NCBI GenBank assembly: GCA_002083485.1 | Contig: LWDK01000036.1 | Location: 36,680-100,679 of the forward strand | Length of the DNA stretch: 64,000 nt | Direction: 5' to 3' | Source: Proteobacteria bacterium SG_bin7 | Lineage (GTDB): Bacteria > Bdellovibrionota > Bdellovibrionia > Bdellovibrionales > SG-bin7 | Shown: positions 1,774 to 28,183 of the stretch, piece after piece | How the letters are laid out: each line of letters starts with the position of its first letter | Numbering within the stretch: position 1 is the first letter of the stretch | Translations under genes and position numbers: made by a program | Notes under the pieces: model-generated | Told to the model about the DNA's origin: nothing | Databases searched by the model: none | The model's input: the letters and a program-made list of their open reading frames with translations, nothing else

Positions 1774-2406
1774 TTAGATTTTTACCATCTTCGTATTTCC
1801 AGCATATTCTTTGTAAGACACCTTTTGGGCTGTGATTTCTTGAATTTTTTTTACAACCTCAGAAATTCGCCAAAGCGATCTGTTTAGCTTTTCATATTTA
1901 CTATTTGATTTTATATCTTGATCGTTCAAGCAGCCAATTGCAATTGTGAGTGGATTGTTAATCTCATGATTGTAGGTTGCGATCATTGCGTCTAGCGCCG
2001 CAACCTCCTTAAGCCGTCCCATTTCTTTGGACAGGTCAGATAGAGCCAAATGAGTTTTTATTCTAGAAACCATAATATCAAAATTAACCGGTTTACTTAC
2101 AAAGTCATTGGCCCCGTCGTGTAGGCAATTTACAACTTCTTGGGTGTCGGACTTTGCCGTCATCATAATTACAGGCAGCTCGATAACATTTGTATGACTT
2201 CTGATTTTCTTCAAAATATCGGTCCCCAGAGTCCCTGGCATCAGAATGTCTAATAGTATCAAGTCAACTTTTTCGAGCGATATAATATCGTAGCACTCTT
2301 TAGCGCTTCTTGCTTCGACGACCTCATATTCCCCTTTACGTTTTAGAACCTCCGCCATCACATCTCGATCAAAATCACTATCGTCAACAATCAAAATTTT
2401 TTTCAT
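1774..2406 (-). CDS. Response-regulator receiver fused to a DHp/HisKA-like H-box domain, with no ATPase domain
   Basis: REC motifs: KILIVDDSDFDRD, VDLILLDILMPG, VIMMTAKSD, SKPV. The H-box YNHEINNPLTIAIGCL follows and the protein ends about 60 aa later without N/G1/G2 boxes. It overlaps the upstream Hpt gene by 4 nt. Confidence 0.8.
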   Translation of the reverse strand: MKKILIVDDSDFDRDVMAEVLKRKGEYEVVEARSAKECYDIISLEKVDLILLDILMPGTLGTDILKKIRSHTNVIELPVIMMTAKSDTQEVVNCLHDGANDFVSKPVNFDIMVSRIKTHLALSDLSKEMGRLKEVAALDAMIATYNHEINNPLTIAIGCLNDQDIKSNSKYEKLNRSLWRISEVVKKIQEITAQKVSYKEYAGNTKMVKI

Positions 2407-2771
2407 TTCACTTCCAACATTGCTTCCAGAAGAACTTGGATTTCGTGCCGAAGCTCAGCTAAGATATTCTCACAACCTTTAAGGTCACCTGACTTTCCTA
2501 GCTTCTCAAGAGCTTCCGCTAAACGTCGGCATGGCTCCGCATGAAAGTGCGAAACCGCACCCTTTAAAGTATGTGCCGAAATTTCCAAATTTTTACTATT
2601 TTTTTCGCTTATGGCAGTATTGATTGCGGTCATCATTCCTGGAACCGTTCCTATAAAGTTGGTGATAACTTTAACCCCAAGATCTGTCATTCCGTGAAAG
2701 TTAGCAAAAAATGCATCGCGATCAAACGGGTAACCATTGATAAATTCTTTTGAGTTTCCTTTAGTAGTCAT
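2403..2771 (-). CDS. Stand-alone Hpt phosphotransfer protein
   Basis: 122 aa, helical, with the Hpt signature ISAHTLKGAVSHFHA (HxxKG). Confidence 0.8.
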   Translation of the reverse strand: MTTKGNSKEFINGYPFDRDAFFANFHGMTDLGVKVITNFIGTVPGMMTAINTAISEKNSKNLEISAHTLKGAVSHFHAEPCRRLAEALEKLGKSGDLKGCENILAELRHEIQVLLEAMLEVK

Positions 2772-2812
2772 GAACTCTCTTTGGTAATATTTCGGAGTTC
2801 TTAAACAAAATC

Positions 2813-3505
2813 TTAATTTTGTAGGATTTTTACCCGCTCAAGCAGTTCTTTAAATTGAAATGGCTTTGATATTGGCGAACTTCCAAGGGGGATAGTCGCC
2901 ATTTGATCTGAGGACGTATACCCCGACATGAACAAGACTTTTGGCATGTTTACAGTGAACAACCGAGAGAGCAAGAACTCCACTTCTGGCCCAAGAAGGT
3001 CTGGCATAAAGATATCCAAAATAACGACCCCAACCTCTTCTTGAACAATTAACTTAAGCGCTTCTGCCCCCATCGTTGAAGTATAAATCTGAAAACCATG
3101 ATCGTGAAGAAAAGCAGATAACAATTCAACCAAGTCAGGTTCATCATCAACAACCAAAACTTTTTTTCTATCTCGCAACAACTTTTTCTGAACTCCAAGC
3201 TGAGCGAAGCCCTTGAAAATATCAAGCGGAAACGGCACGAACTCACGACGAACTGGAGAGTATAACTTCAACTCTATGCGAGAGTCCAGAACACGAAAAG
3301 AAAACAAAGGACCGGTATCGACCCGCTGTTTGAAAAAATTTATTAAATCACTATTTCCAGTATCTTCAAAAAGAATCCATGACGCTGGCGAGGGCATATC
3401 AGTTACCACCGAACCATTTATTTTGTAAAACCAAACATTTTCACTAAATTCTTTGCGAAGAAGTTCTTGGCTGGTATCACTAGAGCAAAAAATATGGAAA
3501 TGCAT
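2813..3505 (-). CDS. Response regulator with a C-terminal receiver; the N-terminal ~110 aa are uncharacterised (possibly a degenerate receiver)
   Basis: C-terminal REC: KKVLVVDDEPDLVELL, VVILDIFMPDLLG, VLFMSGYT, SKPF. The N-terminal part (HFHIFCSSD...WILFEDTG) has a receiver-like beta/alpha pattern but lacks the acidic pocket. Confidence 0.7.
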   Translation of the reverse strand: MHFHIFCSSDTSQELLRKEFSENVWFYKINGSVVTDMPSPASWILFEDTGNSDLINFFKQRVDTGPLFSFRVLDSRIELKLYSPVRREFVPFPLDIFKGFAQLGVQKKLLRDRKKVLVVDDEPDLVELLSAFLHDHGFQIYTSTMGAEALKLIVQEEVGVVILDIFMPDLLGPEVEFLLSRLFTVNMPKVLFMSGYTSSDQMATIPLGSSPISKPFQFKELLERVKILQN

Positions 3506-3541
3506 TCGACAATTATGGCTGCCAAACCATCTCTTGACTAC

Positions 3542-4624
3542 TTATTTTTTACTTATAGACTGTTTTTTTGGAAGGGTCACGACAAACGAAGTATTTAAAG
3601 ACCCAGTATCTAAACTTATCCTGCCGCCGTGAGCTTCTATTAGCTTACGCGCTATACTCAGCCCCAAGCCAGTTCCACTCTGCCTTCCCTTGGTCGTAAA
3701 GAAGGGTGTCATTATTTGGTCAGCAAGATTCGAATCTATCCCAGTGCCAGAGTCGGTGACTCGAATGGTAACGACGCCGCTATCGCACTTTGCGGTAATC
3801 CAAAGGCGACGCTCAAAAAGTGTGCGAACGGCATCAATTGAGTTACCAATCAAATTAATAAGAGCATGGCATATTTCTACAGGTCGACATTCAAACTCAA
3901 ACTCATCTATATCAAGACAGACATTGAGACGAGAGGCCAAAAGTTTTGTTTGGGAGAGGTCTATAATATCATTGAAAAGTTCCCTGGAAGAGGTGTCTAA
4001 AAATGCATCCCTGGCACTTACGTAAGTCATAGCCTTAATTCCCTTGGCAATTTTTGAAATCCGAAAACATACTTGTTCTATTTTATTTACTGCTTCTATC
4101 GCCGCCGATTTTTCTCCCTCTAAATCCTGGATAGCAGATCTTAAGAAGTTTGCTTTTCCGACAATGACGGTTAGAGGACTGTTAATTTCATGGGCAATTT
4201 CTCCCGCCATCAGTCCTAAACTTGACAAATTTGCGACTCGTTCATTTTCCGGCATAAACAAAAGTCCTAAGGAACGTGAACTTATGGGAATTCCAACAGC
4301 CCCAACAATATTAGGCTCAATAAATTCAATAGCCGAAGTTTTTTGATCAACCAAAACTCTAATGAGAGGATATTTCAGGCGGCGTAATGGTGATATATCT
4401 GTAATTTCTGTTCCGACGGTTAACCTACCATCCAAAAAAAGGCGTTCGGCCATTTGATTGTAAGAGCGAAGGACTAAAGTCTTGGACTTTTCTGCCCTAA
4501 AAAAATCAAAAATACATATACCAAAAGGAAGGCCCATAATTAACGCTTCAAGCTCTGTTGCTTCTGAATTGACCGTATTGTACTTAAGTTTCATAGAAGT
4601 TATGCAACCGCCAACATTTGGCAT
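3542..4624 (-). CDS. Cytoplasmic sensor histidine kinase (PAS-like N-terminus, HisKA, HATPase_c)
   Basis: H-box AGEIAHEINSPLTVIVG, N-box ALINLIGNSIDA, G1 VTDSGTGI, G2 SGTGLGLSIA. An alternative ATG at 4594 would avoid the 25-nt overlap with cheB. Confidence 0.85.
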   Translation of the reverse strand: MPNVGGCITSMKLKYNTVNSEATELEALIMGLPFGICIFDFFRAEKSKTLVLRSYNQMAERLFLDGRLTVGTEITDISPLRRLKYPLIRVLVDQKTSAIEFIEPNIVGAVGIPISSRSLGLLFMPENERVANLSSLGLMAGEIAHEINSPLTVIVGKANFLRSAIQDLEGEKSAAIEAVNKIEQVCFRISKIAKGIKAMTYVSARDAFLDTSSRELFNDIIDLSQTKLLASRLNVCLDIDEFEFECRPVEICHALINLIGNSIDAVRTLFERRLWITAKCDSGVVTIRVTDSGTGIDSNLADQIMTPFFTTKGRQSGTGLGLSIARKLIEAHGGRISLDTGSLNTSFVVTLPKKQSISKK

Positions 4625-5664
4625 CTTTTTATAATTTCAGCAGCAATTCGATCGAGAGGAAGAATTTCGTGAACGGCACCCACATCGATTGCCACCTTAG
4701 GCATGCCGAACACAACACATGACTGTTCATTTTGTGCGATATTATAACTACCAGCCTCTTTCATCGCCAACAAACCCTCAGCGCCGTCTTTGCCCATTCC
4801 AGTTAACACTACACCAATCGCATTTGCGCCGGCATATTTAGAAACAGATTTCATCAAATAATCCGCTGCAGGCCGAACGCCGTGCAAAGCAGGTTCTTGA
4901 TGAAGCTTAACAAAATAGTAGGCTCCGCTGCGGGAAAGCTCCATATGAAAATTTCCCGGAGCAATTAAGGCCCGTCCTGGAAAGACCTTATCTCCGTCTT
5001 GTGCCTCTTTGACTTCAAATTGACATAGCTTTTGCAAATTATCGGCATAGGTTTTTGTAAAAACCGGGGGAAGGTGTTGAACAATCACAGTCCCAGGTAT
5101 GTCCGGAGGCAATAGGGGTAACACTCTTTTTAAGGCCTCAGTTCCCCCAGTTGAAGACGCAATCGCCAAAACCGAGTGAGTCGTTTTAGCAAGTGCCGTG
5201 GCTTTAACGTCGGTGGGTCGAGCCCGAACAATGGGAGACAGAGTCCTTTTTTCAGGTAAATTTGACTTTGCGACAACTTTTACGCGTGTGATAATTTCGT
5301 AACGAACGGCTTCCATGGATCGCGTCACATCGATCGCTGGTTTCGCCATCACATCTATCGCACCTACCTCAAAGGCCCGCAAAGTAGTGGCCGAACCTTG
5401 TGTCGATAAACTACTAATAATGAGAGTGCGAGTTGGTAAATGCTGCATAACCTTCTCGAGAAAAGTTACACCATCCATTTTCGGCATTTCTACGTCTAAC
5501 GTCATAACGTCCGGCTTTAACTTCGTAAGCATTTCACGCGCCACATAGGGATCAGGCGCAGAACCAACGACTTCGATTTCGGGGTCAGAACTTAAAAACT
5601 TTGTAAGTAAAGTTCTAATAATTGAAGAATCGTCGACAACAAGAACGCGAATTTTTTGATTCAT
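4600..5664 (-). CDS. cheB: Chemotaxis response regulator protein-glutamate methylesterase CheB
   Basis: The REC domain reads IRVLVVDDSSIIR and VMTLDVEMPKMDG. The esterase domain has intact triad contexts: AIASSTGGTEAL, VIVQHLPPVFT, LTGMGKDGAEG. Confidence 0.9.
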   Translation of the reverse strand: MNQKIRVLVVDDSSIIRTLLTKFLSSDPEIEVVGSAPDPYVAREMLTKLKPDVMTLDVEMPKMDGVTFLEKVMQHLPTRTLIISSLSTQGSATTLRAFEVGAIDVMAKPAIDVTRSMEAVRYEIITRVKVVAKSNLPEKRTLSPIVRARPTDVKATALAKTTHSVLAIASSTGGTEALKRVLPLLPPDIPGTVIVQHLPPVFTKTYADNLQKLCQFEVKEAQDGDKVFPGRALIAPGNFHMELSRSGAYYFVKLHQEPALHGVRPAADYLMKSVSKYAGANAIGVVLTGMGKDGAEGLLAMKEAGSYNIAQNEQSCVVFGMPKVAIDVGAVHEILPLDRIAAEIIKRCQMLAVA

Positions 5665-7208
5665 CAGGCAACTCTCTTATTTCTAATTTCCATAACCGTG
5701 TTGGCAAAATCACCCGCGCTTTTGACGTAGTCTACAATTCCCAAATTAATTGCCTGTTGAGGACCGTAAGGAAAAGCACATAAATCCGGATCTTCAACGA
5801 GAGTAACATTGCCACTGGCGCGCATAGCCGCCAACCCGTCAACACCGTCACGGCCGAATCCACTCATAAGCACTCCTAAAGCGCCACCGCGCTCACAACT
5901 TGCGATCGACGCCATCAGCACATCGCTTGATGGCTTTTGGCCATTTACTGGAGGGAGTTGTCGAAGTTTCGCATAAAAATTATTGGATTGAGTTTCAACC
6001 ACAATATGGTTGTCTGCGGGAGCAAAATAAACATTTCCAGAGGTCAAGTGTGTGTTTTCTTTAACAACCGAAAGTCTAACAGAAACATTTTTTTTAATTT
6101 TTTGAATGTAGGCTTCGATAAACGAAGATAATGTCGAGTTGGCAACAATAACCGGCGGCGTATCACTGTTTAGCGACTGAAGAAATGCTTTTAAACCGTC
6201 TTGCGACCCCGTATTTCCGCCCACGGCAATCAATTTTAAACCCTGAATCCCTAAACCACTTACGGCATATTCGACCTTGGTATCAGATTTTTTTTGAGAC
6301 CGATTTGCCAAAACTTTTTGACTAGCTGCCGCCTTCACTTTCTCAACTAACGTTTCTCCAAGTTGCTTGATAACGGCGGGATCATACTGCGATGGTTTGT
6401 GAATAAACTCAATCGCCCCTAGCTCCAGAGCTCTAAGAGCAGCCTCGCCCTGGCTTCCCAACGACGACACCATAACAACTGGCAGCGGCATGTGTTTCAT
6501 CAACTTCTCTAAAAAAACGACGCCGTTCATTTTTGGCATCTCGATATCCAAGGTAATAACATCAGGTTTATGTTTTACCAGCATTTCACGTGCCTGATAC
6601 GGATCGGCAGCAACACCAACCACGTCTAGACCGTGTTTTGAAAAGACATTTTGGAAAAGCGATCTTACCGTCGCCGAGTCGTCAACAATTCCGACTTTGA
6701 CTTTGCGGATGGGCTCTAACTTTATTCGCCCTGAAATATCCACTTGAGAATTCTCGTCTTGATTGATAAACCTATGTATGACATTGAAGTCCGACACATT
6801 GATAGTAATCTTTCGGCTAAGCTCTCCACCCACATTTTGCTCGACAACAGGAATTCCGAGATTGGCAAGCGTCTCAAATGCAAAGTCGATATTCTTTTTC
6901 CCGACGCCAATTCCAATCTGCACATCGGTAAGTACGGCCCCACCTCCGTAGACCTTTGCCTTTAAATTCCGCCGTGAGGCACCCAGTCGTTCCAATTCTT
7001 GGATTAGCATGGGAATAGCGCATTCACCATAGCGTCCACTTGCAACTTCTCCTTGAGGAAGTTTTGTCAAAAGATAGTGGTTAAGGCCAGCACACTTTGC
7101 TAGGGGATCATACAAAACCACCGATACACAAGAGCCAAGAATTGTTGTTAATTCAACAGGGTCCTTTGACACAGCCAAACGCCCCGGCAACACATAGAGA
7201 GTTTTCAT
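5664..7208 (-). CDS. Three-domain fusion: CheD deamidase, receiver, and a CheB-like domain with a degenerate catalytic triad
   Basis: CheD part: TILGSCVSVVLYD, AGLNHYLL, KAKVYGGGAVL. REC part: KVGIVDDSATVR, VITLDIEMPKMNG, HKP. The CheB-like part reads IAVGGNTGS / PVIVANSTL / MSGFGRDGVDG, against ASSTGGT / VIVQHLPP / GMGKDGAEG in the neighbouring CheB. Confidence 0.85.
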   Translation of the reverse strand: MKTLYVLPGRLAVSKDPVELTTILGSCVSVVLYDPLAKCAGLNHYLLTKLPQGEVASGRYGECAIPMLIQELERLGASRRNLKAKVYGGGAVLTDVQIGIGVGKKNIDFAFETLANLGIPVVEQNVGGELSRKITINVSDFNVIHRFINQDENSQVDISGRIKLEPIRKVKVGIVDDSATVRSLFQNVFSKHGLDVVGVAADPYQAREMLVKHKPDVITLDIEMPKMNGVVFLEKLMKHMPLPVVMVSSLGSQGEAALRALELGAIEFIHKPSQYDPAVIKQLGETLVEKVKAAASQKVLANRSQKKSDTKVEYAVSGLGIQGLKLIAVGGNTGSQDGLKAFLQSLNSDTPPVIVANSTLSSFIEAYIQKIKKNVSVRLSVVKENTHLTSGNVYFAPADNHIVVETQSNNFYAKLRQLPPVNGQKPSSDVLMASIASCERGGALGVLMSGFGRDGVDGLAAMRASGNVTLVEDPDLCAFPYGPQQAINLGIVDYVKSAGDFANTVMEIRNKRVA

Positions 7209-8161
7209 GCGGCAATAATCCTATCAACGTCGACGATCAAAACGGTTTTCTTTTCACTAATACTAATATGGCTGACCAAACTTTTTCCCGAACCGGACAA
7301 TCGATCATTTTTTTGAAAATTTCCAACATTAAGCTCATCAATTTGTTGAGCTTGTTCAATAGGAAATCCAAAACGAACCCCATCAACATTACAAATGACA
7401 ATAAAAGATTTTTCGAGATTCGTGCATTCCCCGAAAGTAAGTTTTAAATCCAGTATAGGCATGACCTCACCCCGCAGATTCATAAGGCCCATAAGATCAG
7501 CTCGATGCGCAGGCATTATATTCAGTTTTTTAAACTGCACCACTTCAACGACTTTGGTAACAGGAATTCCGAATTGTCGTCCTTGATTCACACATAGGAG
7601 GAAAACTCGCTTTTCTGGTAAAGCCTCCTTTTTCTCTAAAGGGGGAATTTCCTTAGCGACCCTATTATTAGGTGGGATAGGCTGACTGACTTTTTCTTCG
7701 GAAACGACAGCCTGAATTTGGTCGGCTTTTGTACTTTTAACCATCCAAGATGACAAATTGTTAAGTAACGGACTATAAGTTTCTAAGAGGGAAGCAGTAT
7801 CTTCGAGTGTATTTGATAGATCAATTAAATACTTTTCTACCGACTGTAAAACATTTGAGAGCTGAAACTCCAGATTCATTAGCGAGTCTGTTATTTTGTT
7901 AACCTCTGTGGCCGAGATTTCCTCTTTTATTTTGGTCAGTCGAGTTTCTATTTCGTGTACAAACTGTCCACAAAAACTAAAACCAACCGCCTGAACATTG
8001 CCTTTCAAACTGTGAAAGGACTTCATAACCTTATCAAGAACCTCTATAGGATTCTTAGACAGTTCGGGCAAAACCTCTCTTGCCTCAGTCACATACTCTT
8101 GGCTGTCCACAGCACATTGTTTCTGTAAGTCTTTTAAAAACCCGTCTTCCGCCGCTGTCAT
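7205..8161 (-). CDS. Hpt(P1)-CheW(P5) protein: CheA-like but without dimerisation and ATPase domains
   Basis: N-terminal P1-type Hpt motif MKSFHSLKGNVQAVGF. C-terminal CheW-like domain FLLCVNQGRQFGIPVTKVVEVV...LMNLRGEVMPILDL. No N/G1/G2 boxes anywhere in the 318 aa. Confidence 0.8.
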   Translation of the reverse strand: MTAAEDGFLKDLQKQCAVDSQEYVTEAREVLPELSKNPIEVLDKVMKSFHSLKGNVQAVGFSFCGQFVHEIETRLTKIKEEISATEVNKITDSLMNLEFQLSNVLQSVEKYLIDLSNTLEDTASLLETYSPLLNNLSSWMVKSTKADQIQAVVSEEKVSQPIPPNNRVAKEIPPLEKKEALPEKRVFLLCVNQGRQFGIPVTKVVEVVQFKKLNIMPAHRADLMGLMNLRGEVMPILDLKLTFGECTNLEKSFIVICNVDGVRFGFPIEQAQQIDELNVGNFQKNDRLSGSGKSLVSHISISEKKTVLIVDVDRIIAA

Positions 8162-8170
8162 GATTCACTC

Positions 8171-10279
8171 CTAAGCCGCATTGGCTGTCTGCTCTTTCGA
8201 TAGTAAAGTTATCATGTCCTCTGGAGACACCACATAAGCAATTTTTTCGTTCCCTAACATCGTCGTACCCTTAAACCCGGGAAGGCTTTTTACAATATTG
8301 TCAAAAGATCTCACCACGGCTTCAAGCTGGTCTTCGATGCGGTCGATCAACAGCCCAATAAACTTATGCTTATAACGAATGATGACCGCCGATTTGCTTC
8401 TCACCGACTCCACAGACTCGATATTTCTGTTCTCAAGGAGTTCATCAAAACTTCGCAATACAATAGTTTGGCCGTCAAATTCGCACATTCTCGTTTGATC
8501 AAGTTCTGTTAACTGAAGTTGATCACAAGACATAATTCTGGCTATCGAGGTCAGTGGAACCGCAAACACGGCGTCTTTCCAGGCCCCCAAAACTGTGTGC
8601 TCAACCATCACCGCCTTTGGAACCGGTATCTCAATGGTAAAAGTAGTTCCTTTACCAAGGGATGAGCCAATCTTTACGTTTCCAGCGTGTTGAAGTACGG
8701 AAGACTTAACGACATCCATTCCGACGCCACGACCCGACACGCCTGTGACCTTTTCAGCTGTAGAAAATCCTGGTAAAAAAATCAAATCAAACACTTCTGC
8801 GTCCGACATACCCTGTGACTTTTCTTTAGTTACAAGTTGATTTTGAATAGCTTTTGCAATGACCTTATCCCTAGGGATTCCGTTACCATCATCACTTACC
8901 ACGATGTTAATGACGCCTTGGCTTTCTGAAGCCTTGATATTAATGATTCCCTCTTCACTCTTCCCACGCTCTCGTCTTACCGATGGAGTTTCAAGACCGT
9001 GATCGATAGAGTTACGAACCATATGCACCAAACAACTTCCCAATGATTTGGCAATATTTTTATCAACTCCTAACTCTAACCCTTCGGTCGTAAATTTAAC
9101 TTTCTTTCCAACCTCTTGACTTGTCTGACGCACAATTCGATTCAACTTACTGAAAGCTTTCTCGAGAGAGACTTTTCGCACTGACATTATGTGTTCCTGG
9201 AGATGGTCAGTAATTTTATTCAGGCTATAAGCGAATTCTGCATGTTTTTTCTCGAGCTTTTGCGGATTATTTCTAATTTCATGATCGCGACTCATCATGT
9301 GAAAATGGTTCTTTAGTACAATGAGTTCTCCGGACAAAGCCATAAAAGAGTCAAGTTTTTCATTAGACACCCAGATCCCTTCATCTTCTTGTGTAAAGTC
9401 CTCTTTACCAGAATTGGATGAAGGGCTAGAATTAATCGTAGCCACTGCCATTGACTCAGGAACAGCCGCCTGATTCTTTTTTTCTTTCAGATCTTTTAGT
9501 TGCTCAATAACAGAATCTACTTTTTTTCGAAGCTCTGGATCTACTTGATCGTCGACTTTAATGATTTGAAGAAGTTTTAGCACCAAATCCGTAGATTCAA
9601 GGAAAGTATTAATCGCGTGTGCGTTTGGCTTAAACTCTCTCTTTTTTATAAGCGCCAGTACTGATTCAAATTCGTGTGCGAGTGTACTTAAAGTTTTTGC
9701 TTGCGGAATAGCTCCCGCTCCCCCCTTTACTGAGTGAACTTTGCGAAAAAGTGAATCTACAACCACAAGATCCAGCGGCTCTTCTTCAAGCCGAAGCACC
9801 AATTGATCAGCATCGCTCATGAGGTCATGGGATTCTTCAACGAAGAGTTGGGTAATCTCTAAAACCTCTTTCTTCTCTTGTTCAATGTCAGCAATTCTTT
9901 TTTGTGCATACTTAATGACTAAGGATCGCAACTGGTCTGACGGAATTGGCTTTTCAACAATATCGTTAACGCCCTGACTTAAACTGGCCATTGCCAACGT
10001 TTTATCGCTATAAGCGGTTACAAAGACAAAAGGTAGAGCCGGCAAAGTCTTACGCAACTCCTGACAAAAAACCAGCCCATCCATTCCCGGCATCTTAAAA
10101 TCAGAAAGAATCAGAAAAGGTACCGTGGACTTAACGGCTTCAATAGCATCTTTAGGATTAGAAAATGTACGTACGCGAATACCTGTCTCTTGAATTACCG
10201 CAGAGACTACCTGAAGGATTTCTTCTTCGTCATCAACAATAAAAACTTCTTCGTTTAGATTCAATTTTAACTGACTCAT
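8171..10279 (-). CDS. cheA: CheA histidine kinase with an N-terminal receiver domain (REC-P1-P3-P4-P5)
   Basis: REC: VFIVDDEEEIL, LILSDFKMPGMDG, FVTAYSD, EKPI. P1: FRKVHSVKGGAGAI. P4: HMVRNSIDHGLE, VSDDGNGI, GVSGRGVGMDVVK. C-terminal CheW-like domain present. Confidence 0.9.
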   Translation of the reverse strand: MSQLKLNLNEEVFIVDDEEEILQVVSAVIQETGIRVRTFSNPKDAIEAVKSTVPFLILSDFKMPGMDGLVFCQELRKTLPALPFVFVTAYSDKTLAMASLSQGVNDIVEKPIPSDQLRSLVIKYAQKRIADIEQEKKEVLEITQLFVEESHDLMSDADQLVLRLEEEPLDLVVVDSLFRKVHSVKGGAGAIPQAKTLSTLAHEFESVLALIKKREFKPNAHAINTFLESTDLVLKLLQIIKVDDQVDPELRKKVDSVIEQLKDLKEKKNQAAVPESMAVATINSSPSSNSGKEDFTQEDEGIWVSNEKLDSFMALSGELIVLKNHFHMMSRDHEIRNNPQKLEKKHAEFAYSLNKITDHLQEHIMSVRKVSLEKAFSKLNRIVRQTSQEVGKKVKFTTEGLELGVDKNIAKSLGSCLVHMVRNSIDHGLETPSVRRERGKSEEGIINIKASESQGVINIVVSDDGNGIPRDKVIAKAIQNQLVTKEKSQGMSDAEVFDLIFLPGFSTAEKVTGVSGRGVGMDVVKSSVLQHAGNVKIGSSLGKGTTFTIEIPVPKAVMVEHTVLGAWKDAVFAVPLTSIARIMSCDQLQLTELDQTRMCEFDGQTIVLRSFDELLENRNIESVESVRSKSAVIIRYKHKFIGLLIDRIEDQLEAVVRSFDNIVKSLPGFKGTTMLGNEKIAYVVSPEDMITLLSKEQTANAA

Positions 10280-10286
10280 TAAGGCC

Positions 10287-11198
10287 TCACATCTTTCTCA
10301 ATTTTTTATAAACTGCGTGACTTAAGGTTTTCACATCTTTAGACCTCATGGCACCCGACTCTGAATGGCCCAAAAATAGAAGGCCCTCAGGCGTAAGAAA
10401 ATGAAGCGCATTTTCAACAACCCTATGAGCAGTTTGAGGATCAAAGTAAATCAAAACATTGCGACAAAAGATAATGTCAAAGTTGCCCTTAAACGGATAA
10501 GGCTCGTCGACCAGATTTAAAGGTGCAAAACGCACAAATTTTTGAAAATCCGGCAGGATCTGAAAAAGTGTGCCTTCCACCTTTGTCAACTTTCTAAAAT
10601 ACTTCTGACGCATCAAAACAGGAACCCCTTCAATTTCCTTCTCACTATAAACGGCTTTACTCGCTTTTTGTAACACCTCGAGATCTATATCTGTTGCCAA
10701 AAAACGAAAATCCCAATTTTTTATAGAATCGCCAAAAAATTCAAGTATGGTAAGCAAAATAGAATAGACCTCTTGTCCTGTGCTAGCGGCGCCACACCAA
10801 ATACGTAGCTCACGAGAATTTTCTGCTTTCTTTCTTGCTAAAATTTCCGGAAGGACTGAAGTTAAGAAACTAAAATGAGCATTTTCACGGAAGAAATGAG
10901 TGGTATTGGTGGTGAGCGATTGCACAAAATTTCTTTTTATAACTTCGTCGCCGGTCTTCAGTCTCTTAACTAAATCTCCATATTTTGCAATTTTGTGACT
11001 CTTCATCAGTGACATCAATCGCGTTGCCATAAGCGAATGATTTTTGGGATTCGAAGCAAGATTAATTCCTGCATACCCTTTCAAAAGCAATGCGAGCTCA
11101 AGAAAGCCCTTCACATCAGATTGGAGGATAGCCAACATTTCTTGACTATCAGAAAGATATTCTGTCGCCGCAACCACCGCACTTTGATTAAATTTCAT
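10287..11198 (-). CDS. cheR: Chemotaxis protein methyltransferase CheR
   Basis: Reads FFRENAHF, then the SAM-binding block RIWCGAASTGQEVYSI, then FDIIFCRNVLIYF. Overlaps the upstream cheA by 4 nt. Confidence 0.9.
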   Translation of the reverse strand: MKFNQSAVVAATEYLSDSQEMLAILQSDVKGFLELALLLKGYAGINLASNPKNHSLMATRLMSLMKSHKIAKYGDLVKRLKTGDEVIKRNFVQSLTTNTTHFFRENAHFSFLTSVLPEILARKKAENSRELRIWCGAASTGQEVYSILLTILEFFGDSIKNWDFRFLATDIDLEVLQKASKAVYSEKEIEGVPVLMRQKYFRKLTKVEGTLFQILPDFQKFVRFAPLNLVDEPYPFKGNFDIIFCRNVLIYFDPQTAHRVVENALHFLTPEGLLFLGHSESGAMRSKDVKTLSHAVYKKLRKM

Positions 11199-12859
11199 AT
11201 AGCCTCTGGTCGAAGTTGTCCGACATCATTGTTAACCAAATCATGAAGGCCATAAGCATTAATGACCAATGCCACCCGCCCGTCACCCAAAATTGCCGCC
11301 CCAGAAATTCCCCGAACTTCTTTGAAATTGTTGCCGAGAGGTTTCAGGACAACTTGGGTTTGACCCACGACTTCATTGACACCAACGACAAGTTGTTTTT
11401 TGCCAGCTTCAAGAAGAACATACATTTGGGGAGGAGCATGCTGACTAACTGATTTACTAAAGGCTTGACCTAGATTCAAAATTCGAACTGCCACGCCTCG
11501 ATGATTTAAAGCCTGGAGTCCATCTTCAATAGAAATGAACTCCGCACCGGTGGGGTAAATCAGTTCCCGGATACAATCTAAAGGGATAATATAGTAGAGG
11601 CGACCGACACGCACAATGAGTCCGTCCGTTATCGAAGTTGTCAAAGGAATCGAAATCGTGATTTTCGTTCCAACGGACAGTTGGGAAGAAACCTCAACAG
11701 CGCCCTTCATCTTTTCGATGTTGGATTTTACAACATCCATACCGACACCGCGGCCAGAAACATCCGTTACAACTTCTGCCGTTGAAAATCCTGGTTCAAA
11801 AATAAATAGAAATATTTGCTGCTCAGAAAAAGATGAAAGCAATTGATCTTTGGCCACGAGACCCTTTTCCTTGGCCTTTTCGAAAATTTTCTCCGTGTTA
11901 ATTCCGGCTCCATCGTCGATGACTTCAATAGTAACACGATCCCCCTGTTGACGAGCCGAAACTTTTATTTTTCCAGTCGCGACTTTTCCGCGGCTCACTC
12001 TTGTCGAGGTTGGCTCGATTCCATGATCTAATGAGTTGCGTACAATATGCATAAGTGGATCGGCAAGCAGCTCTACCATTGACCGATCAATTTCAATATC
12101 TTCACCAGACATTTCCAGCTCGACCGATTTCGAAATTTTCACAGATAGATCGCGCACCAACCTCTGCATTTTTAAGAAAAGTGGCTTCAGCGGCATCATT
12201 CTTAAAATCAAAGTTTTCTCTTGAATTTCGCGAATGGCTTTATCAAGTTGCGAGACAATCGAAATAAGTCGGACATCTCCCAAATAATTTTGGCATTGAT
12301 TCAGTACCTGACTCTTAATGACGACGAGCTCGCCGACAGAATTCAACAGTGTTTCAACGACACCTGAATCTATTTTTATACTGCTTGCACCGGAATTAGT
12401 AGTCATGTGGGTCAGCTTAGCTACTTTCGCTTTTGGCTTCTCGTTTGATTCCGTGGGAATTTCAGCGCGAAGCTTTTCGATAAGTTTCTGCAATTCCAAA
12501 AATAGTTGCGAGTTATCCCAGATGGACCCATCGCGAGTCTTCAACATCGCAATTCGGGTTTTAAAAGCATCATCACATAGTAAAAGTAGTGATATTATCT
12601 CTGTGTTGATTTTTTCCGGACAAACACGTAATATGGCGAGAAGATCTTCAACAACATGGGCAAATGCGGATAAATCTGTAAACCCGACGGCAGCGCCAGT
12701 TCCCTTCATCGAATGAACAAGTCTAAATATCCGATTCAGTTCCTCAGTACGACTCTCAGGTTTTTCGAGGTTTAAATAGGACTCCTCACACTCTTCCAAC
12801 ATGAAAGTAATTTCATCTAAAAATTCTTTTTGAAACCCCTCAAGCGCAAATTCTTCCAT
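11195..12859 (-). CDS. cheA: CheA histidine kinase (P1-P3-P4-P5)
   Basis: P1: FRLVHSMKGTGAAVGF. P4: HIVRNSLDHGIE, VIDDGAGI, DVSGRGVGMDVVK. C-terminal CheW-like domain LIVRVGRLYYIIPL. Confidence 0.9.
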   Translation of the reverse strand: MEEFALEGFQKEFLDEITFMLEECEESYLNLEKPESRTEELNRIFRLVHSMKGTGAAVGFTDLSAFAHVVEDLLAILRVCPEKINTEIISLLLLCDDAFKTRIAMLKTRDGSIWDNSQLFLELQKLIEKLRAEIPTESNEKPKAKVAKLTHMTTNSGASSIKIDSGVVETLLNSVGELVVIKSQVLNQCQNYLGDVRLISIVSQLDKAIREIQEKTLILRMMPLKPLFLKMQRLVRDLSVKISKSVELEMSGEDIEIDRSMVELLADPLMHIVRNSLDHGIEPTSTRVSRGKVATGKIKVSARQQGDRVTIEVIDDGAGINTEKIFEKAKEKGLVAKDQLLSSFSEQQIFLFIFEPGFSTAEVVTDVSGRGVGMDVVKSNIEKMKGAVEVSSQLSVGTKITISIPLTTSITDGLIVRVGRLYYIIPLDCIRELIYPTGAEFISIEDGLQALNHRGVAVRILNLGQAFSKSVSQHAPPQMYVLLEAGKKQLVVGVNEVVGQTQVVLKPLGNNFKEVRGISGAAILGDGRVALVINAYGLHDLVNNDVGQLRPEAI

Positions 12860-12861
12860 GT

Positions 12862-13383
12862 TTATGCTCGCCTCTTTGTTATTAACATAGTTTTCTTCAT
12901 GACTAACAATTGGCGCTTAATATCTCTGACTTTTGCAAGTTGTATCGGGTCAAGATTTTGAAAGAGACTGTCTTTTCCACTCTCCTCCTCCAACGAACTT
13001 AACTGCTGTCCAAGTTCACATGATTTTTTAATGACCGAAAACAGTTCACTCTGTTGATATGGCTTTTCCAAAAAGTCAAAGGCTCCCAACTTCAAGGCTT
13101 CGATTACCTTCGCCTTATCACCATAGCCGGTCAAAAAAACAAAAGGGACGAAGTTATCCATCTCTCTTAAGTTTTTAAGCAGTTCGAGGCCATTCATTTC
13201 TGGCATATTGATGTCAGAAAGAATCGCGTCAATTGTGCGCTCTCCACCATTTACAATTTTAAGAGCGCTGGCACCATTCTCCGCCAAAACGATATTGATT
13301 GGAAGCAACTGGAGTTGCTCAAAGAGCACCTCCTGAAGATCATGATCGTCTTCCACAACTAGCAAAGTCGCCTTAGCATTCAT
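12862..13383 (-). CDS. CheY-like single-domain response regulator with a ~50-aa C-terminal helical extension
   Basis: REC: TLLVVEDDHDL, ILSDINMPEMNG, VFLTGYGD, EKPY. I placed the start at ATG 13383 (MNAKATLL), 13 nt after the cheW stop; the ORF-track start at 13428 overlaps cheW. Confidence 0.8.
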   Translation of the reverse strand: MNAKATLLVVEDDHDLQEVLFEQLQLLPINIVLAENGASALKIVNGGERTIDAILSDINMPEMNGLELLKNLREMDNFVPFVFLTGYGDKAKVIEALKLGAFDFLEKPYQQSELFSVIKKSCELGQQLSSLEEESGKDSLFQNLDPIQLAKVRDIKRQLLVMKKTMLITKRRA

Positions 13384-13396
13384 AAACCCTACATAT

Positions 13397-13870
13397 CTAC
13401 GCAGCGATATTTTGACTCGAAATCGCATTCTGAATCTTGGTCAGTTCGCTATGACCTAGAGCCTTTACGATATCTATCAAAATCACTACGGTGTTATCTA
13501 TTTTCCCCATCCCAATAACATACGAAATTTTGGATTCTTCTCCCATCGCAGGGCGCGGTTCAATTTGCTCCGCCGAGAGGTCTATTACCCCGCTCACTGA
13601 GTCCACTATCATTCCGACCTGCCCGGCGTCGCTCTCGATGACGATAATGCAAGTTTCTCGTGTATGAGGAACCGATGGAATCCCAAATTTCATTCTTAAA
13701 TCTACGACTGGAATTACCTTACCACGCAGATTTATAACTCCAGCCACAAAACCAGGTGTCTGAGGAACGGGAGTAATGTCGGTGACCCGATTAATCTCCC
13801 TTACCGAGCCAATGGGAACTCCATAGGGCTGGGACTTCAACGAAAATGTTAAAAATTGCTTTGTGGACAT
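13397..13870 (-). CDS. cheW: Chemotaxis coupling protein CheW
   Basis: CheW fold motifs: QFLTFSLKSQPYGVPIGSVREI, VINLRGKVIPVVDLRMKFG. ATG 13870 (MSTKQF) lies 4 nt after the MCP stop. Confidence 0.85.
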   Translation of the reverse strand: MSTKQFLTFSLKSQPYGVPIGSVREINRVTDITPVPQTPGFVAGVINLRGKVIPVVDLRMKFGIPSVPHTRETCIIVIESDAGQVGMIVDSVSGVIDLSAEQIEPRPAMGEESKISYVIGMGKIDNTVVILIDIVKALGHSELTKIQNAISSQNIAA

Positions 13871-13874
13871 CGTA

Positions 13875-15902
13875 TTAAAACCCATCTGTTGTTCCAACTT
13901 TATTGGCCACGTCCTCATCAAAAGGAATAGCCTGCGTAGCTGGAGTCGGGCGCTTCAATTTGCTAACGAACTTTTTTGCGGTGTTGATTGGCCGCACATC
14001 GTGATGACTAGCGACGGTCTTACCTTTTTCGTCGCCACGAGATGTTTCATTGTTGGTGCCCTGGATTAACAGGGTCATTTCAGATACAAGTCCTTTCAGG
14101 GTATCAGCCTGACTTGACATCTCGGTTGCCGATGCTGCGACTTCCTCAGATGCAGATGCATTTTGCTGAGTTGATTGATCTAATTCATTCATGGCTTTGC
14201 TGATCTGACCTATGCCATTGGCCTGTTCGGCACTTGCCGAGGCAATCTCACTATTTAAATCTGACACCTTCTTAACACTGGTCACGATATTTTTAAGAAC
14301 ATTTCCACTGGCGTCGGCGATTTTCGTACCACTTTCAATTTGTGAAACGCTATCTTTAATTAAAGCGGTAATATCTTTAGCTGCTGAAGCGCTTCTCTGT
14401 GCCAGGTTTCTTACGGCCTCTGCAACAACTGCAAACCCTTTGCCCTGTTCACCAGCTCGGGCAGCTTCCACAGCAGCGTTAAGCGCCAGCAAATTGGTCT
14501 GAAACGCAATATCGTCTATCACGTTTATAATTTCTTCGATTTTTTTCGAGCTTTGTGAAATTTCTTTCATCGACGAAATTAAATTTCTAATTTCTGTCTC
14601 GCCTTCTTCTGCAGACTTTGTACTCGTTTGAGAAAGTGAGGCGGCCTGTTTGGCATTGTCAGCATTGAGTTTTACCATGCTTGACAACTCTTCGATCGAA
14701 GAAACAGTTTCTTCAAGAGACGCAGCCGCTTCTGTAGATCCCGAAGATACTTGTTGACTCGCCGAAGAAAGTTGAGCGCTTGCCGAAGAGACTTGAACTC
14801 CCGACTCAGCGATCTGCTTAGTAATATCGGACAAGCGGTTGGCGATACGCACTGACAAAAACCAAGCCACAACCAAGAAGATCAAGGCCAGAGTTCCAGT
14901 AATAATTTGGAATTGCCATGCGGCTTTATCAATGGCCGCAAACACTTCATCAGAAGCGATACGCACCAAGGTTCCCCAACCTAAAGCATTCGCAAATTTA
15001 TCAGATGTTATCGGCCCATAACCTATAACTTGATCAATTCCCTTGCGTGCATGCCTTCCCGTCGTTGAGCCCGAGCGACCACCGACAATTTCCTTAGCAG
15101 CAAATACTCCGCGCTCCGCAAGATTAAGCTTTCCTAAAACACTGGAGTCGTGTTTTACTTCAAGGTTGCCACCATTAACCGAGGGATCATAATCGACAAT
15201 TACATTTCCAGCCTTATCAAGTATTGTTAGTTCAGCAGAACCAAGTTTCGCTGCCTTGAATCTTTTATATAAATCTACAACCTCATTCTCAACCCACCTG
15301 AAATTAGCGCGATTTGTAAGGACACCCATTGGCTTTCCAGTTGAATCTTTAACCAAGGCGCTAAAACTGTTGCCATAGATGTCTTTCTTTAATACCGCTG
15401 AACTAATAGGATCAAAATGAGCGCTTTCAACAAAAGTTCCAACTAAACCTTTTTTAGGATCTTCGGTTAAGTTGTTGTTGGACACAGCTTTGAACCAGGC
15501 CTCGCTATTATACATTTTGGATTGAAGGGGCGTGGTATCAATGGGCTTACCAGACGCATCGACTGCATTTGCCGCGATAAAGTGACCGGACATATCCACG
15601 AACATGACAACGTCGTAGATCCCGTAAAGCGTGACATACTCGTTAAAAGTTTTCGTCAAGATTTTTGAATCCTTAAGATTAAAAGCGTGATTTTTAGCGA
15701 AAGCCTGAACATCGAAATAGCGCTCGTAAAATTGTGACGCAATACCAAGTCCGAGACCTTCAGAGTGGGATCCGAAATTCTCTAGTATATTATTCCGTTG
15801 CTCATTGAGTGCCATTCGAAATTGAACAAAATTTGCGGCTCCGAAAACTAGCAGAACCCCAAACATCATCATAACTATTTTTGCTTTAAAACTTTTAAAC
15901 AT
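13875..15902 (-). CDS. Methyl-accepting chemotaxis protein with a large (~300 aa, double-Cache-like) periplasmic domain
   Basis: Two TM segments (aa ~9-27 and ~325-347). The highly conserved hairpin tip reads [37 protein letters not shown]. Candidate methylation heptads: [38 protein letters not shown]. Confidence 0.9.
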
Positions 15903-28182: not shown

Positions 28183-28183
28183 T

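What the first reader, a model, noticed from the sequence alone, without database searches (positions are those of the whole stretch)
5664..7208. CheD deamidase fused to a receiver and a catalytically degenerate CheB domain
One 514-aa ORF joins three modules that normally occur in two or three separate proteins.
- The CheD part keeps its Cys/His context (LGSCVSV, GLNHYLL).
- The receiver keeps the DD, D, S and K positions.
- The C-terminal domain aligns position for position with the genuine CheB encoded immediately downstream. At the nucleophile it reads GGNTGS instead of SSTGGT (Ser to Asn). At the triad His it reads VIVAN instead of VIVQH (His to Asn). Only the Asp (GRDG) is kept.

This looks like a phosphorylation-gated deamidase tethered to receptors through a pseudo-esterase receptor-binding module, with a functional CheB paralogue next door. 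I do not recognise this architecture as described.
Basis: partly seen in the sequence, partly recalled or inferred. Interest (0 to 1): 0.8.

Follow-up and report, generated by a model that had tools for sequence, protein, structure and literature searches.

The report
CheD deamidase fused to dead CheB
This gene encodes a real, conserved bacterial chemotaxis protein, found where named only in Bdellovibrio and its relatives, that joins an intact receptor deamidase (CheD) and a phosphorylation switch to a CheB esterase domain that has lost two of its three catalytic residues yet is still kept by selection.

Summary
Window 5664..7208 (minus strand) is one 514-aa ORF with CheD, receiver and CheB_methylest domains, all above Pfam thresholds.
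- **CheD** keeps Thr22/Cys27/His44.
- **Receiver** keeps Asp176/Asp177/Asp221/Ser249/Lys271.
- **CheB-like domain** has Asn332 for Ser164 and Asp454 for Asp286.

It is not an artefact. All 145 relatives that cover the site have Asn at the nucleophile position, none has His at the His190 position, and all keep the Asp. dN/dS of the dead domain is 0.04. The HD100 orthologue (Bd0580) is detected in a published proteome.

The architecture is not unique. All named members are Bdellovibrionota, and three fusion types occur: both enzymes intact, dead CheB (this one), and dead CheD with live CheB. The last type occurs elsewhere in the same MAG.

The dead-CheB type always follows its own CheA and a CheW-like gene. 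It is most likely that kinase's response regulator, with CheD as the active output and the pseudo-esterase as a docking or autoinhibitory module. That mechanism is inferred, not shown.

I found no paper describing it. I rate it a new variant of a known kind, of moderate interest.

The parts
5664..7208 (-). Whole gene: CheD-receiver-CheB-like fusion, 514 aa plus stop
   Evidence: ORF list and translation; three Pfam domains; 100% match to OQW49165.1 of 'Proteobacteria bacterium SG_bin7'.
6729..7208 (-). CheD deamidase domain (residues 1-160). Catalytic-type residues: Thr22 (7143-7145), Cys27 (7128-7130), His44 (7077-7079).
   Evidence: Pfam PF03975, 80 bits. Foldseek to T. maritima CheD 2F9Z_C: TM 0.87, rmsd 1.7 A. 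T22, C27 and H44 are present in 140/140 family members that cover the site.
6708..6728 (-). CheD-receiver junction (residues 161-167), following the conserved VD[VI][ST]GF motif at residues 155-160
   Evidence: D157 is at least 90% conserved and G160 is invariant. The motif aligns with the C-terminal D[VI]ELF of stand-alone gammaproteobacterial CheDs. Model confidence is lower here, pLDDT about 66-76.
6354..6707 (-). Receiver (REC) domain (residues 168-285). Asp176/Asp177 (6678-6683), phospho-acceptor Asp221 (6546-6548), Ser249 (6462-6464), Lys271 (6396-6398).
   Evidence: Pfam PF00072, 81.5 bits. The acidic pair, phospho-acceptor Asp and Lys are present in every member that covers the site, and Ser249 in 141 of 145. 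This is the most conserved part: mean column identity 0.85 and dN/dS 0.012.
6234..6353 (-). CheB-type interdomain helix and linker (residues 286-325)
   Evidence: Long helix 277-304 in the model, then a low-confidence loop. Aligns with the CheB linker of 1A2O.
5694..6233 (-). CheB-like pseudo-esterase domain (residues 326-505). Asn332 (6213-6215) replaces Ser164, Ser358 (6135-6137) replaces His190, Asp454 (5847-5849) equals Asp286.
   Evidence: Pfam PF01339, 115 bits, against 209-221 bits for the catalytically intact CheB domains scanned. Foldseek to CheB catalytic domains 3SFT (TM 0.94, rmsd 1.4 A) and 1CHD (TM 0.90). Asn 145/145, His 0/145, Asp 145/145. dN/dS 0.040.
7205..8161 (-). Conserved upstream partner: Hpt + CheW-like protein (318 aa). 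Its stop overlaps the fusion's start (ATGA).
   Evidence: Pfam; junction sequence. A CheW-like gene sits in this position in all nine other dead-CheB fusion loci examined.
8171..10279 (-). Conserved upstream partner: CheA kinase with N-terminal receiver (702 aa), here called 'CheA2'
   Evidence: Pfam. Orthologue of the CheA that heads the B. bacteriovorus three-gene operon: 41% identity, E 2e-149, against 28% for the other CheA in the window.
4600..5664 (-). Canonical CheB (REC + methylesterase, Ser/His/Asp intact), start overlapping the fusion's stop (TGATG)
   Evidence: NCBIfam PRK00742: 426 bits against a cut-off of 293.
10287..15902 (-). Rest of the che cluster: CheR (10287..11198), CheA1 (11195..12859), CheY-like REC (12862..13428), CheW (13397..13921), MCP (13875..15902)
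   Evidence: Pfam. The MCP has consensus modification sites SASQQVSSG at residue 380, ASLEETVSS at 394 and SASEEVAAS at 583.

Best explanation
The gene encodes a genuine single-chain CheD-receiver-CheB-like protein. It belongs to a family whose named members are all Bdellovibrionota (orthologue Bd0580 / Q6MQ99 in B. bacteriovorus HD100).

**Shown**
- The CheD domain keeps its Thr/Cys/His catalytic set.
- The receiver keeps every phosphorylation residue.
- The CheB-like domain keeps the CheB fold and the triad Asp. It carries a fixed Asn at the Ser164 nucleophile position and no His at the His190 position, so it cannot work as a Ser-His-Asp methylesterase.
- The dead domain is under strong purifying selection.
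- In all ten loci examined the gene sits directly behind its own CheA and a CheW-like gene.

**Inferred**
- The protein is the response regulator of that dedicated CheA.
- Phosphorylation of Asp221 alters the receiver/CheB-like packing, as it does in CheB.
- That change controls what the CheD domain does on chemoreceptors: deamidation of Gln at methylation sites, and/or CheD-type receptor binding that tunes kinase activity.
- The pseudo-esterase has been retained as a non-catalytic module. It either docks on the receptor's modification helices or acts as the autoinhibitory partner of the receiver.
- True demethylation is left to a separate canonical CheB: next door in this window, Bd3467 in HD100.
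For: - **Architecture and residues:**
- **Family-wide fixation**: Asn332 145/145; no His at position 358 (0/145); Asp454 145/145; CheD T22/C27/H44 140/140; receiver D176/D177/D221/K271 in all.
- **Remodelling rather than decay**:
  - Conserved-but-different sites cluster in the active-site loops: S164N, G167S, M283F, A288V, E306P, V311F.
  - The loop glycines and prolines (G162, G166, P183, P184, P258, S259, G282, G284, G287) are shared with real CheBs.
- **Selection:** dN/dS against a 90%-identical relative is CheD 0.078, REC 0.012, CheB-like 0.040, compared with 0.016 for the neighbouring real CheB catalytic domain.
- **Model:** AF2 pLDDT 88, pTM 0.86. Full-length CheB 1A2O/6YMZ superposes at TM 0.78-0.81 over about 350 columns. 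Receiver and CheB-like domain are therefore predicted to pack roughly as in inactive CheB.
- **Synteny:** CheA - (Hpt)CheW - fusion in all ten loci. In the three Bdellovibrio-type operons examined the fusion carries the only receiver detected. The operon CheA is the orthologue of the window's CheA2.
- **Translational coupling:** overlapping start and stop codons at both ends of the gene.
- **Candidate substrate:** the cluster's MCP has a Gln-Gln pair in a consensus modification site.
- **Expression:** Bd0580 / Q6MQ99 appears in the HD100 predation proteome tables, which also list a separate CheB (Bd3467) and a solo CheD (Bd2829) (supplement of PMC12546842).
- **Precedent for a non-enzymatic CheD role:** in B. 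subtilis, CheD's receptor and CheC binding matter more for chemotaxis than its deamidase activity (PMC3513319).
Against: - No biochemical datum exists for any family member.
- Phosphotransfer from CheA2, receptor binding by either domain and deamidase activity are all inferred from homology and gene order.
- I could not inspect the model's coordinates or inter-domain error. Where the CheD active site sits relative to the receiver and CheB-like domain is therefore unknown.
- The window has two CheAs and several other receivers, so the phosphodonor is not unique here.
- NCBIfam CheD equivalog models score well below their cut-offs (114 against 223 bits), so this CheD domain is divergent.
- In B. 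subtilis CheD is regulated by CheC, and no CheC was found in these clusters. The analogy is functional only.
Confidence: 0.55

Rival explanations
1. Substrate trap or competitor. The pseudo-esterase is the main functional part. It binds methylated or amidated receptor sites without turning them over. In a phosphorylation-dependent way it shields them from the real CheB or CheR, or reports methylation state. The CheD domain acts as an independent constitutive enzyme.
For: Invariant Asn at the nucleophile position and conserved active-site loops suggest a preserved ligand pocket. A real CheB is encoded next door in the deeper lineages, giving something to compete with.
Against: Bdellovibrio-type operons keep the fusion without an adjacent CheB or CheR. 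The CheD catalytic residues are just as invariant, so CheD is not a passenger. There are no binding data.
Confidence: 0.15
2. Structural relic. The CheB-like domain no longer touches receptors at all. It survives only because the receiver needs its old partner domain to fold and to transmit the phospho-signal to the fused CheD domain.
For: The receiver/CheB-like arrangement is predicted to resemble inactive CheB. A reciprocal family keeps a dead CheD domain in front of a live CheB. This shows that a dead domain can be retained in these fusions for non-catalytic reasons.
Against: A pure scaffold would not be expected to hold the former active-site loops invariant (GGN.G, G.G.DG, P-S) or to fix Asn in 145/145 sequences.
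Confidence: 0.2
3. Neo-enzyme. The domain has evolved a different catalytic mechanism, for example using Ser335, Ser358, Asp454 or, in most Bdellovibrio, Cys357. It would still hydrolyse receptor esters or amides, or some new substrate.
For: Several polar residues are conserved in the pocket: S335 85%, S358 82%, D349 97%, D454 100%. Cys occupies position 357 in 90/145 members.
Against: No residue is His, Lys or Cys in 90% or more of the family's CheB-like domain. Position 357 is Asn in this window and varies (C/N/V/D/I/S/A). Asn is not a nucleophile. The Pfam score is roughly half that of active CheBs.
Confidence: 0.05
4. Artefact or decaying pseudogene. A frameshift or assembly error joined cheD to cheB, or the gene is dead.
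For: cheD and cheB are adjacent separate genes in many other bacteria, so a sequencing error could mimic a fusion.
Against: The same uninterrupted layout occurs in more than 140 distinct sequences, including a complete genome. dN/dS is 0.05 overall. The HD100 orthologue appears in a published proteome's tables.
Confidence: 0.01

Closest known systems
CheB methylesterase/deamidase (Salmonella CheB, PDB 1A2O; Pectobacterium CheB 6YMZ)
   Same: Receiver + linker helix + CheB catalytic fold. E 6e-62 by sequence. TM 0.78-0.81 for the full length and 0.90-0.94 for the catalytic domain. Asp286 equivalent and most loop Gly/Pro kept.
   Different: Ser164->Asn and His190->Ser, so there is no catalytic triad. 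Extra N-terminal CheD domain. NCBIfam CheB model scores below its cut-off, 258 against 293 bits.
CheD receptor deamidase (T. maritima CheD, PDB 2F9Z chain C; B. subtilis CheD)
   Same: Fold (TM 0.87, rmsd 1.7 A) and the Thr/Cys/His catalytic set. Pfam CheD above threshold.
   Different: Covalently joined to a receiver and a CheB-like domain. No CheC partner found in the cluster. Below the NCBIfam equivalog cut-offs.
Unfused cheR-cheD-cheB gene order of F7-type chemosensory clusters (V. cholerae, P. aeruginosa; Ortega et al. 2020, PMC7184735)
   Same: cheD immediately precedes cheB. I found this adjacency as two separate ORFs in Vibrio, Pseudoalteromonas, Cellvibrionaceae, Clostridium and others.
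   Different: Here the two genes are one reading frame and the CheB half is catalytically dead. In this window a CheA and a CheW-like gene lie between cheR and the fusion.
Intact CheD-REC-CheB fusions of Bdellovibrionota (for example P0147, P0273, P0352, P0195)
   Same: Same three-domain order and length, 28-35% identity. All named members are from the same phylum.
   Different: They keep G[AS]STGG / QH / GMGxDG. They sit in cheA-cheW-mcp-cheR-fusion clusters as the only esterase. They form a separate clade from the dead-CheB family.
B. subtilis CheC-CheD-CheY-P adaptation module (Yuan et al. 2012, PMC3513319)
   Same: A working analogy. CheD's engagement with receptors is put under control of kinase-derived phosphorylation.
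   Different: There the control is through a separate protein (CheC) and free CheY-P. Here a receiver is fused in cis. No homology between CheC and the CheB-like domain is claimed.

Membership tests
CheB protein-glutamate methylesterase | CheB_methylest fold / Pfam PF01339 above the gathering score | tested here: met
   115 bits against a cut-off of 24. TM 0.90-0.94 to 1CHD and 3SFT.
CheB protein-glutamate methylesterase | Catalytic triad Ser164-His190-Asp286 (Salmonella numbering) | tested here: not met
   Asn332, Ser358 and Asp454 in the gapless alignment to 1A2O/1CHD. The same holds in 145/145 relatives.
CheB protein-glutamate methylesterase | NCBIfam CheB subfamily model (NF001965) above its curated cut-off | tested here: not met
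   258.4 bits against a cut-off of 293. The neighbouring CheB scores 426.
CheB protein-glutamate methylesterase | N-terminal (here internal) phosphorylatable receiver domain | tested here: met
   Pfam PF00072, 81.5 bits. D176, D177, D221, S249 and K271 present and conserved.
CheB protein-glutamate methylesterase | Methylesterase or deamidase activity on MCPs | not testable with these tools
   Needs an enzyme assay.
CheD chemoreceptor glutamine deamidase | CheD fold / Pfam PF03975 above the gathering score | tested here: met
   80.3 bits against a cut-off of 25. TM 0.87 to 2F9Z_C.
CheD chemoreceptor glutamine deamidase | Cys-His-Thr catalytic residues. The T. maritima numbering Cys27/His44/Thr21 is recalled from Chao et al. 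2006, which was not read here. | tested here: met
   Thr22, Cys27 and His44 lie in TxLGSC and NH motifs that align with stand-alone CheDs. They are present in all 140 family members that cover the site.
CheD chemoreceptor glutamine deamidase | NCBIfam CheD equivalog cut-off | tested here: not met
   The best model, NF010013, scores 114 bits against a cut-off of 223. These models are built on stand-alone CheDs.
CheD chemoreceptor glutamine deamidase | Deamidase activity on MCP Gln residues | not testable with these tools
   Indirect only: the cluster MCP has a QQ pair in a consensus site.
Bdellovibrionota dead-CheB fusion family (Bd0580 / Q6MQ99 type; uncharacterised) | Single chain CheD-REC-CheB-like with GGN.G[SAC] and no His; encoded after a CheA and a CheW-like gene | tested here: met
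   39-90% identity over the full length to 140+ members. Monophyletic, NJ bootstrap 99-100. Synteny in ten loci.

The most novel reading that the evidence does not exclude
The CheA2 / CheW-like / CheD-REC-CheB* trio would be a self-contained chemosensory circuit whose only output is the receptors themselves.

- The dead CheB domain would act as a phosphorylation-gated 'reader' that recognises the methylation or amidation state of MCP modification helices.
- It would position the live CheD domain on them, giving Bdellovibrionota a third, kinase-controlled adaptation or cross-array tuning arm.
- The phylum would have split an ancestral bifunctional CheD-CheB enzyme into reciprocal half-dead paralogues, CheD-REC-CheB* and CheD*-REC-CheB. 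In each, the dead half serves as the targeting module for the live half.
Probability: 0.2. Interest if true: 0.75.

Novelty: new variant of a known kind. Interest (0 to 1): 0.55.

Why it matters
CheB and CheD are the two enzymes that edit chemoreceptor glutamates and glutamines. What CheD does in bacteria that lack CheC is still poorly understood.

This is a natural construct with three useful properties:
- CheD is hard-wired to a CheB-type phospho-switch.
- The esterase chemistry has been deleted but the pocket is preserved.
- The gene has its own dedicated kinase.

It offers a clean system for asking two questions. Do adaptation enzymes have non-catalytic, receptor-binding roles? How is CheD controlled by phosphorylation?

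The reciprocal family, dead CheD plus live CheB in the same genome, provides a built-in comparison. It is also a tidy example of pseudoenzyme evolution after gene fusion.

There is a practical point too. Hundreds of these proteins are annotated as 'CheB, glutamate methylesterase', an activity they almost certainly lack.

Tried and rejected
**Hypotheses tested and rejected**
- **Frameshift or assembly join.** Rejected: the layout is conserved in more than 140 sequences and one complete genome, with low dN/dS.
- **Shifted Ser or His.** I looked for any residue that is His, Lys or Cys in 90% or more of the family's CheB-like domain and found none. His401 (82%) lines up with the His of the FHME/KHME motif in the neighbouring CheB and Salmonella CheB; I take that His to be non-catalytic (my reading, not tested).
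- **Recent tandem duplicate of the neighbouring CheB.** Not supported: only 33% identity. The neighbour CheBs form their own clade (bootstrap 100), and a dead-CheB + neighbour grouping gets only 25%.

**Left unresolved**
- **Single or independent origin of the dead-CheB and intact fusions.** NJ bootstrap gives 10% or less for any deep grouping of the CheD parts, and 1% for grouping all fusions on the REC-CheB part. The dead family sits on a long branch.

**Searches that led nowhere or were limited**
- **Genome-contig scan with the single protein.** Its peptide patterns were too specific to recover Bdellovibrio genomes.
- **AlphaFold DB Foldseek (afdb50).** Not available.
- **Literature.** Seven full-text searches for a CheD-CheB fusion, inactive CheB or the accession numbers found nothing describing it. 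Wuichet & Zhulin 2010 is not held in the library, so a passing mention there cannot be excluded.
Full report
**1. What is in the sequence**

Window 5664..7208 holds one ATG-initiated ORF of 514 codons on the minus strand. Pfam finds three domains, all well above their gathering scores:
- CheD, residues 55-144, 80 bits
- Response_reg, residues 173-274, 81.5 bits
- CheB_methylest, residues 327-503, 115 bits

The gene is tightly packed between its neighbours. Its start overlaps the stop of the upstream gene (GC**ATGA**AA). Its stop overlaps the start of the downstream CheB gene (C**TGATG**AA).

**2. The catalytic positions**

The REC+CheB part aligns with the CheB encoded immediately downstream (4600..5664, minus strand) at 33% identity, E 6e-62. 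It aligns with Salmonella CheB (1A2O) at E 6e-62, and the catalytic domain aligns with 1CHD without gaps. Window residue number minus 168 gives Salmonella numbering.

| Salmonella CheB | This protein |
|---|---|
| Ser164 | Asn332 |
| Gln189 | Asn357 |
| His190 | Ser358 |
| Asp286 | Asp454 |

The His is replaced by Ser and the preceding Gln by Asn. The conclusion is unchanged: nucleophile and general base are gone, and the Asp is kept.

The neighbouring CheB has ASSTGG / VQH / GKDG and passes the NCBIfam CheB cut-off (426 against 293 bits). The fusion does not (258 bits).

The other two domains look functional:
- The CheD domain has Thr22, Cys27 and His44, in TxLGSC and NH motifs that align with stand-alone CheDs.
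- The receiver has Asp176/Asp177, Asp221, Ser249 and Lys271.

**3. Real, conserved and under selection**

- A word-indexed search of 5.8 billion proteins returned 120 best hits. All carry the same three Pfam domains, are 507-542 aa long and are 46-100% identical. Those with a name were Bdellovibrio, Bdellovibrionota, Oligoflexia or Pseudobdellovibrionaceae. The 100% hit is OQW49165.1 of 'Proteobacteria bacterium SG_bin7'.
- In a 146-sequence alignment, Asn332 is present in 145/145 sequences that cover the site. No sequence has His at position 358 (S 119, G 10, A 9, and others). Asp454 is 145/145.
- In the same alignment, CheD T22/C27/H44 are 140/140. Receiver D176/D177/D221/K271 are present in every sequence that covers them.
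- Against a 90%-identical relative (L089), Nei-Gojobori dN/dS is 0.078 (CheD), 0.012 (REC) and 0.040 (CheB-like). The real CheB catalytic domain next door gives 0.016. The dead domain is being kept.
- I compared 129 dead domains with 150 sampled from 328 intact CheB domains.
  - The loop glycines, prolines and serine around the old active site are shared: G162, G166, P183, P184, P258, S259, G282, G284, D286, G287.
  - A small set of sites is conserved in both groups but with different residues: S164N, G167S, M283F, A288V, E306P, V311F.
  - This looks like a remodelled pocket, not decay.
- The AF2 model is confident (pLDDT 88.2, pTM 0.86).
  - Its parts match CheB catalytic domains (3SFT TM 0.94, 1CHD 0.90), CheD (2F9Z_C TM 0.87) and the CheB receiver (3T8Y 0.86).
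  - Full-length CheB superposes at TM 0.78-0.81. That is more than one domain alone could give, so the receiver is predicted to pack on the CheB-like domain roughly as in inactive CheB.
- The B. bacteriovorus HD100 orthologue is CAE78548.1 / UniProt Q6MQ99 / Bd0580. It is annotated 'cheB, glutamate methylesterase' by NCBI and 'Probable chemoreceptor glutamine deamidase CheD' by UniRef.
- Bd0580 appears in the quantitative predation proteome of Commun Biol 2025 (PMC12546842, supplementary tables). Those tables also list a canonical CheB (Bd3467) and a solo CheD (Bd2829).

**4. Gene neighbourhood**

In the window the minus-strand cluster reads: MCP - CheW - CheY-like REC - CheA1 - CheR - REC-CheA2 - Hpt/CheW hybrid - fusion - CheB. 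A histidine kinase, REC, Hpt and REC follow.

I examined nine further loci carrying the dead-CheB fusion.
- **Deeper lineages** (L083 Oligoflexia, L087, L088, L089, L006 Oligoflexus) have CheR - REC-CheA - (Hpt)CheW - fusion. A canonical CheB lies beside it.
- **Bdellovibrio-type genomes** (L081, L082, L085, L086) have only CheA - CheW - fusion. There is no adjacent CheB, CheR, MCP or CheY.

The Bdellovibrio operon CheA is the orthologue of the window's CheA2 (41% identity, E 2e-149), not of CheA1 (28%). Its CheW-like protein matches the window's Hpt/CheW hybrid (E 1e-14) but has lost the Hpt histidine.

The constant unit is therefore CheA2 + CheW-like + fusion. In the Bdellovibrio-type operons the fusion carries the only receiver detected.

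**5. The architecture is not unique: three versions in one phylum**

An exhaustive HMMER scan of 1.84 billion cluster representatives gave two tiers of full-length matches.
- **Tier 1** (372-552 bits, 39-52% identity, about 21 full-length representatives): the dead-CheB family. Every member carries Asn at the Ser164 position in the family alignment.
- **Tier 2** (195-262 bits, 28-35% identity, about 35 representatives of 492-545 aa): CheD-REC-CheB fusions. Most have an intact G[AS]STGG / QH[IMF] / GMGxDG.

Searching with two tier-2 members returned well over a hundred more. Every named one is also Bdellovibrionota: Bdellovibrionales, Bdellovibrio sp. 28-41-41, Oligoflexia, Oligoflexus, Bacteriovoracaceae.

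The intact fusions sit in cheA-cheW-mcp-cheR-fusion clusters. That is the F7-like order cheR-cheD-cheB (Ortega et al. 2020, PMC7184735) with the last two genes fused.

Outside the phylum, cheD and cheB occurred as two adjacent ORFs in Vibrio, Pseudoalteromonas, Cellvibrionaceae, Clostridium and others, always with an intact triad. One representative (P0153) has the reverse order, CheB-CheD.

A third version emerged. Many 'REC + CheB' proteins of 450-500 aa have an unannotated N-terminal extension of 100-170 residues.
- Profile-profile comparison of 58 such N-termini with the CheD domains of the fusions gives 97.4% probability, E 9e-12, over 122 columns.
- The column aligned with the catalytic Cys is Gly in 39/58. 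None has a GSC or NH motif.
- Their CheB halves are intact.
- One of them, P0456 (A4S09_14285), comes from the same MAG as this window. It sits in a cheA-cheW-mcp-REC-cheR-fusion cluster.

This organism therefore carries both CheD-REC-CheB(dead) and CheD(dead)-REC-CheB.

In NJ trees of the REC-CheB part:
- The dead-CheD proteins nest within the intact fusions (bootstrap 71 for the joint clade).
- The dead-CheB family is monophyletic (bootstrap 100) on a long branch of unresolved position.
- Grouping it with the other fusions gets 1%, and with the neighbouring CheBs 25%.
- The CheD part resolves nothing deeper.

Whether the dead-CheB fusion shares the fusion event of the others is therefore open.

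**6. How it most likely works**

*Shown.* This is a phosphorylatable receiver flanked by a CheD domain with all catalytic residues and a CheB fold without a usable triad. It is retained by selection, co-transcribed with a dedicated CheA and CheW-like protein, and detected as a protein in a cultured relative.

*Inferred.*
- CheA2 phosphorylates Asp221.
- As in CheB, this loosens the receiver's grip on the CheB-like domain.
- The change is passed to the CheD domain or to a receptor-docking surface.
- CheD's action on receptors therefore becomes kinase-dependent. That action could be deamidation of sites such as the QQ pair at MCP residues 384-385, or the kinase-stimulating receptor binding known from B. 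subtilis (PMC3513319).

The pseudo-esterase would be either a docking module for the modification helices or the autoinhibitory partner of the receiver. Its fixed Asn and preserved loops favour a retained ligand pocket.

I give the general scheme about 0.55. The specific 'receptor-docking pseudo-esterase' version is perhaps half of that. Rivals are a substrate-trap competitor of CheB/CheR, a pure structural relic, a neo-enzyme and an artefact.

**7. Comparison with the known, and novelty**

It works like a CheB-type response regulator whose effector has been swapped from the esterase to CheD.

It is not a member of the functional CheB family: the defining triad was tested and not met. It does meet the sequence and fold criteria for CheD and REC.

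The three-domain layout is already in the databases under routine names. No paper in the searchable library describes the fusion, the dead triad or the reciprocal dead-CheD family. The key comparative paper, Wuichet & Zhulin 2010, could not be read.

I rate it a new variant of a known kind. It would surprise a chemotaxis specialist moderately and is a good experimental handle on non-catalytic roles of adaptation enzymes. It is not a new kind of system.

Noticed in passing
L092 10001-11464 (protein P0456, A4S09_14285, same MAG as the window): A reciprocal paralogue. It is a 487-aa protein with an N-terminal domain homologous to CheD (hhalign 97.4%, E 9e-12) that lacks the catalytic Cys and His. 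A receiver and a fully intact CheB follow. It sits in a cheA-cheW-mcp-REC-cheR-fusion cluster. At least 58 similar proteins exist.
   Followed up: yes
window 7205..8161 (-): A 318-aa hybrid of an Hpt domain (His in SFHSLKG) and a CheW-like domain, with no kinase core. The B. bacteriovorus counterpart (L081 9237-10001) keeps the CheW part, but the motif reads LKTLKG, so the His is lost. It is reminiscent of split CheA proteins.
   Followed up: partly
window 8171..10279 (-): A CheA with its receiver domain at the N-terminus (REC-Hpt-dimerisation-HATPase-CheW). I believe the usual position is C-terminal (my recollection, not checked here). The Bdellovibrio orthologue lacks the receiver.
   Followed up: partly
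window 13875..15902 (-); L006 13759-15888: The cluster MCPs end in ...[17 protein letters not shown] (window) and ...IPFGDEGDEPPAKISSTAGF (Oligoflexus). The shared IPF[DG][ED] and terminal [ST]xxGF could be a docking tail for an adaptation enzyme, like the NWETF pentapeptide but without Trp.
   Followed up: no
window 1774..4624 (-): Directly after the canonical CheB come four genes: a cytoplasmic histidine kinase, a 230-aa protein with a C-terminal receiver and an unknown N-terminal half, a stand-alone Hpt (122 aa), and a receiver followed by an H-box-like NHEINNPL segment. The same four genes follow in L089. This may be a phosphorelay output of the cluster.
   Followed up: partly
window 6138..6140 (residue 357); family alignment: The position before the lost His (Gln189 in CheB) is Cys in 90/145 family members and Asn in 35, including this window. 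It is a lineage-specific conserved Cys beside the old active site, of unknown meaning.
   Followed up: partly
window 6729..6743 (residues 156-160) and stand-alone CheDs in L001, L002, L011, L014, L017: The conserved linker motif VD[VI][ST]GF after the CheD domain aligns with the extreme C-terminal D[VI]ELF of stand-alone gammaproteobacterial CheDs. This hints that the fusion arose by read-through of such a cheD stop codon.
   Followed up: no
window 16193..17533 (+); L088 415-2082; L090 12326-13636: An Alginate_exp-family outer-membrane porin gene lies next to the che cluster in the window and in two other Bdellovibrionota loci. One of those carries an intact fusion.
   Followed up: no
window 25170..28924 (+): An H-NOX (haem-NO-binding) gene is flanked by a receiver protein, a hybrid histidine kinase and another receiver protein. 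This looks like a nitric-oxide-sensing two-component module about 10 kb from the che cluster.
   Followed up: no
proteins P0153; P0405-P0408, P0417-P0425: Other fusions of adaptation enzymes turned up: a 593-aa REC-CheB-CheD in the reverse order, and CheB-CheR fusions of about 790-830 aa, one named Silvanigrella.
   Followed up: no
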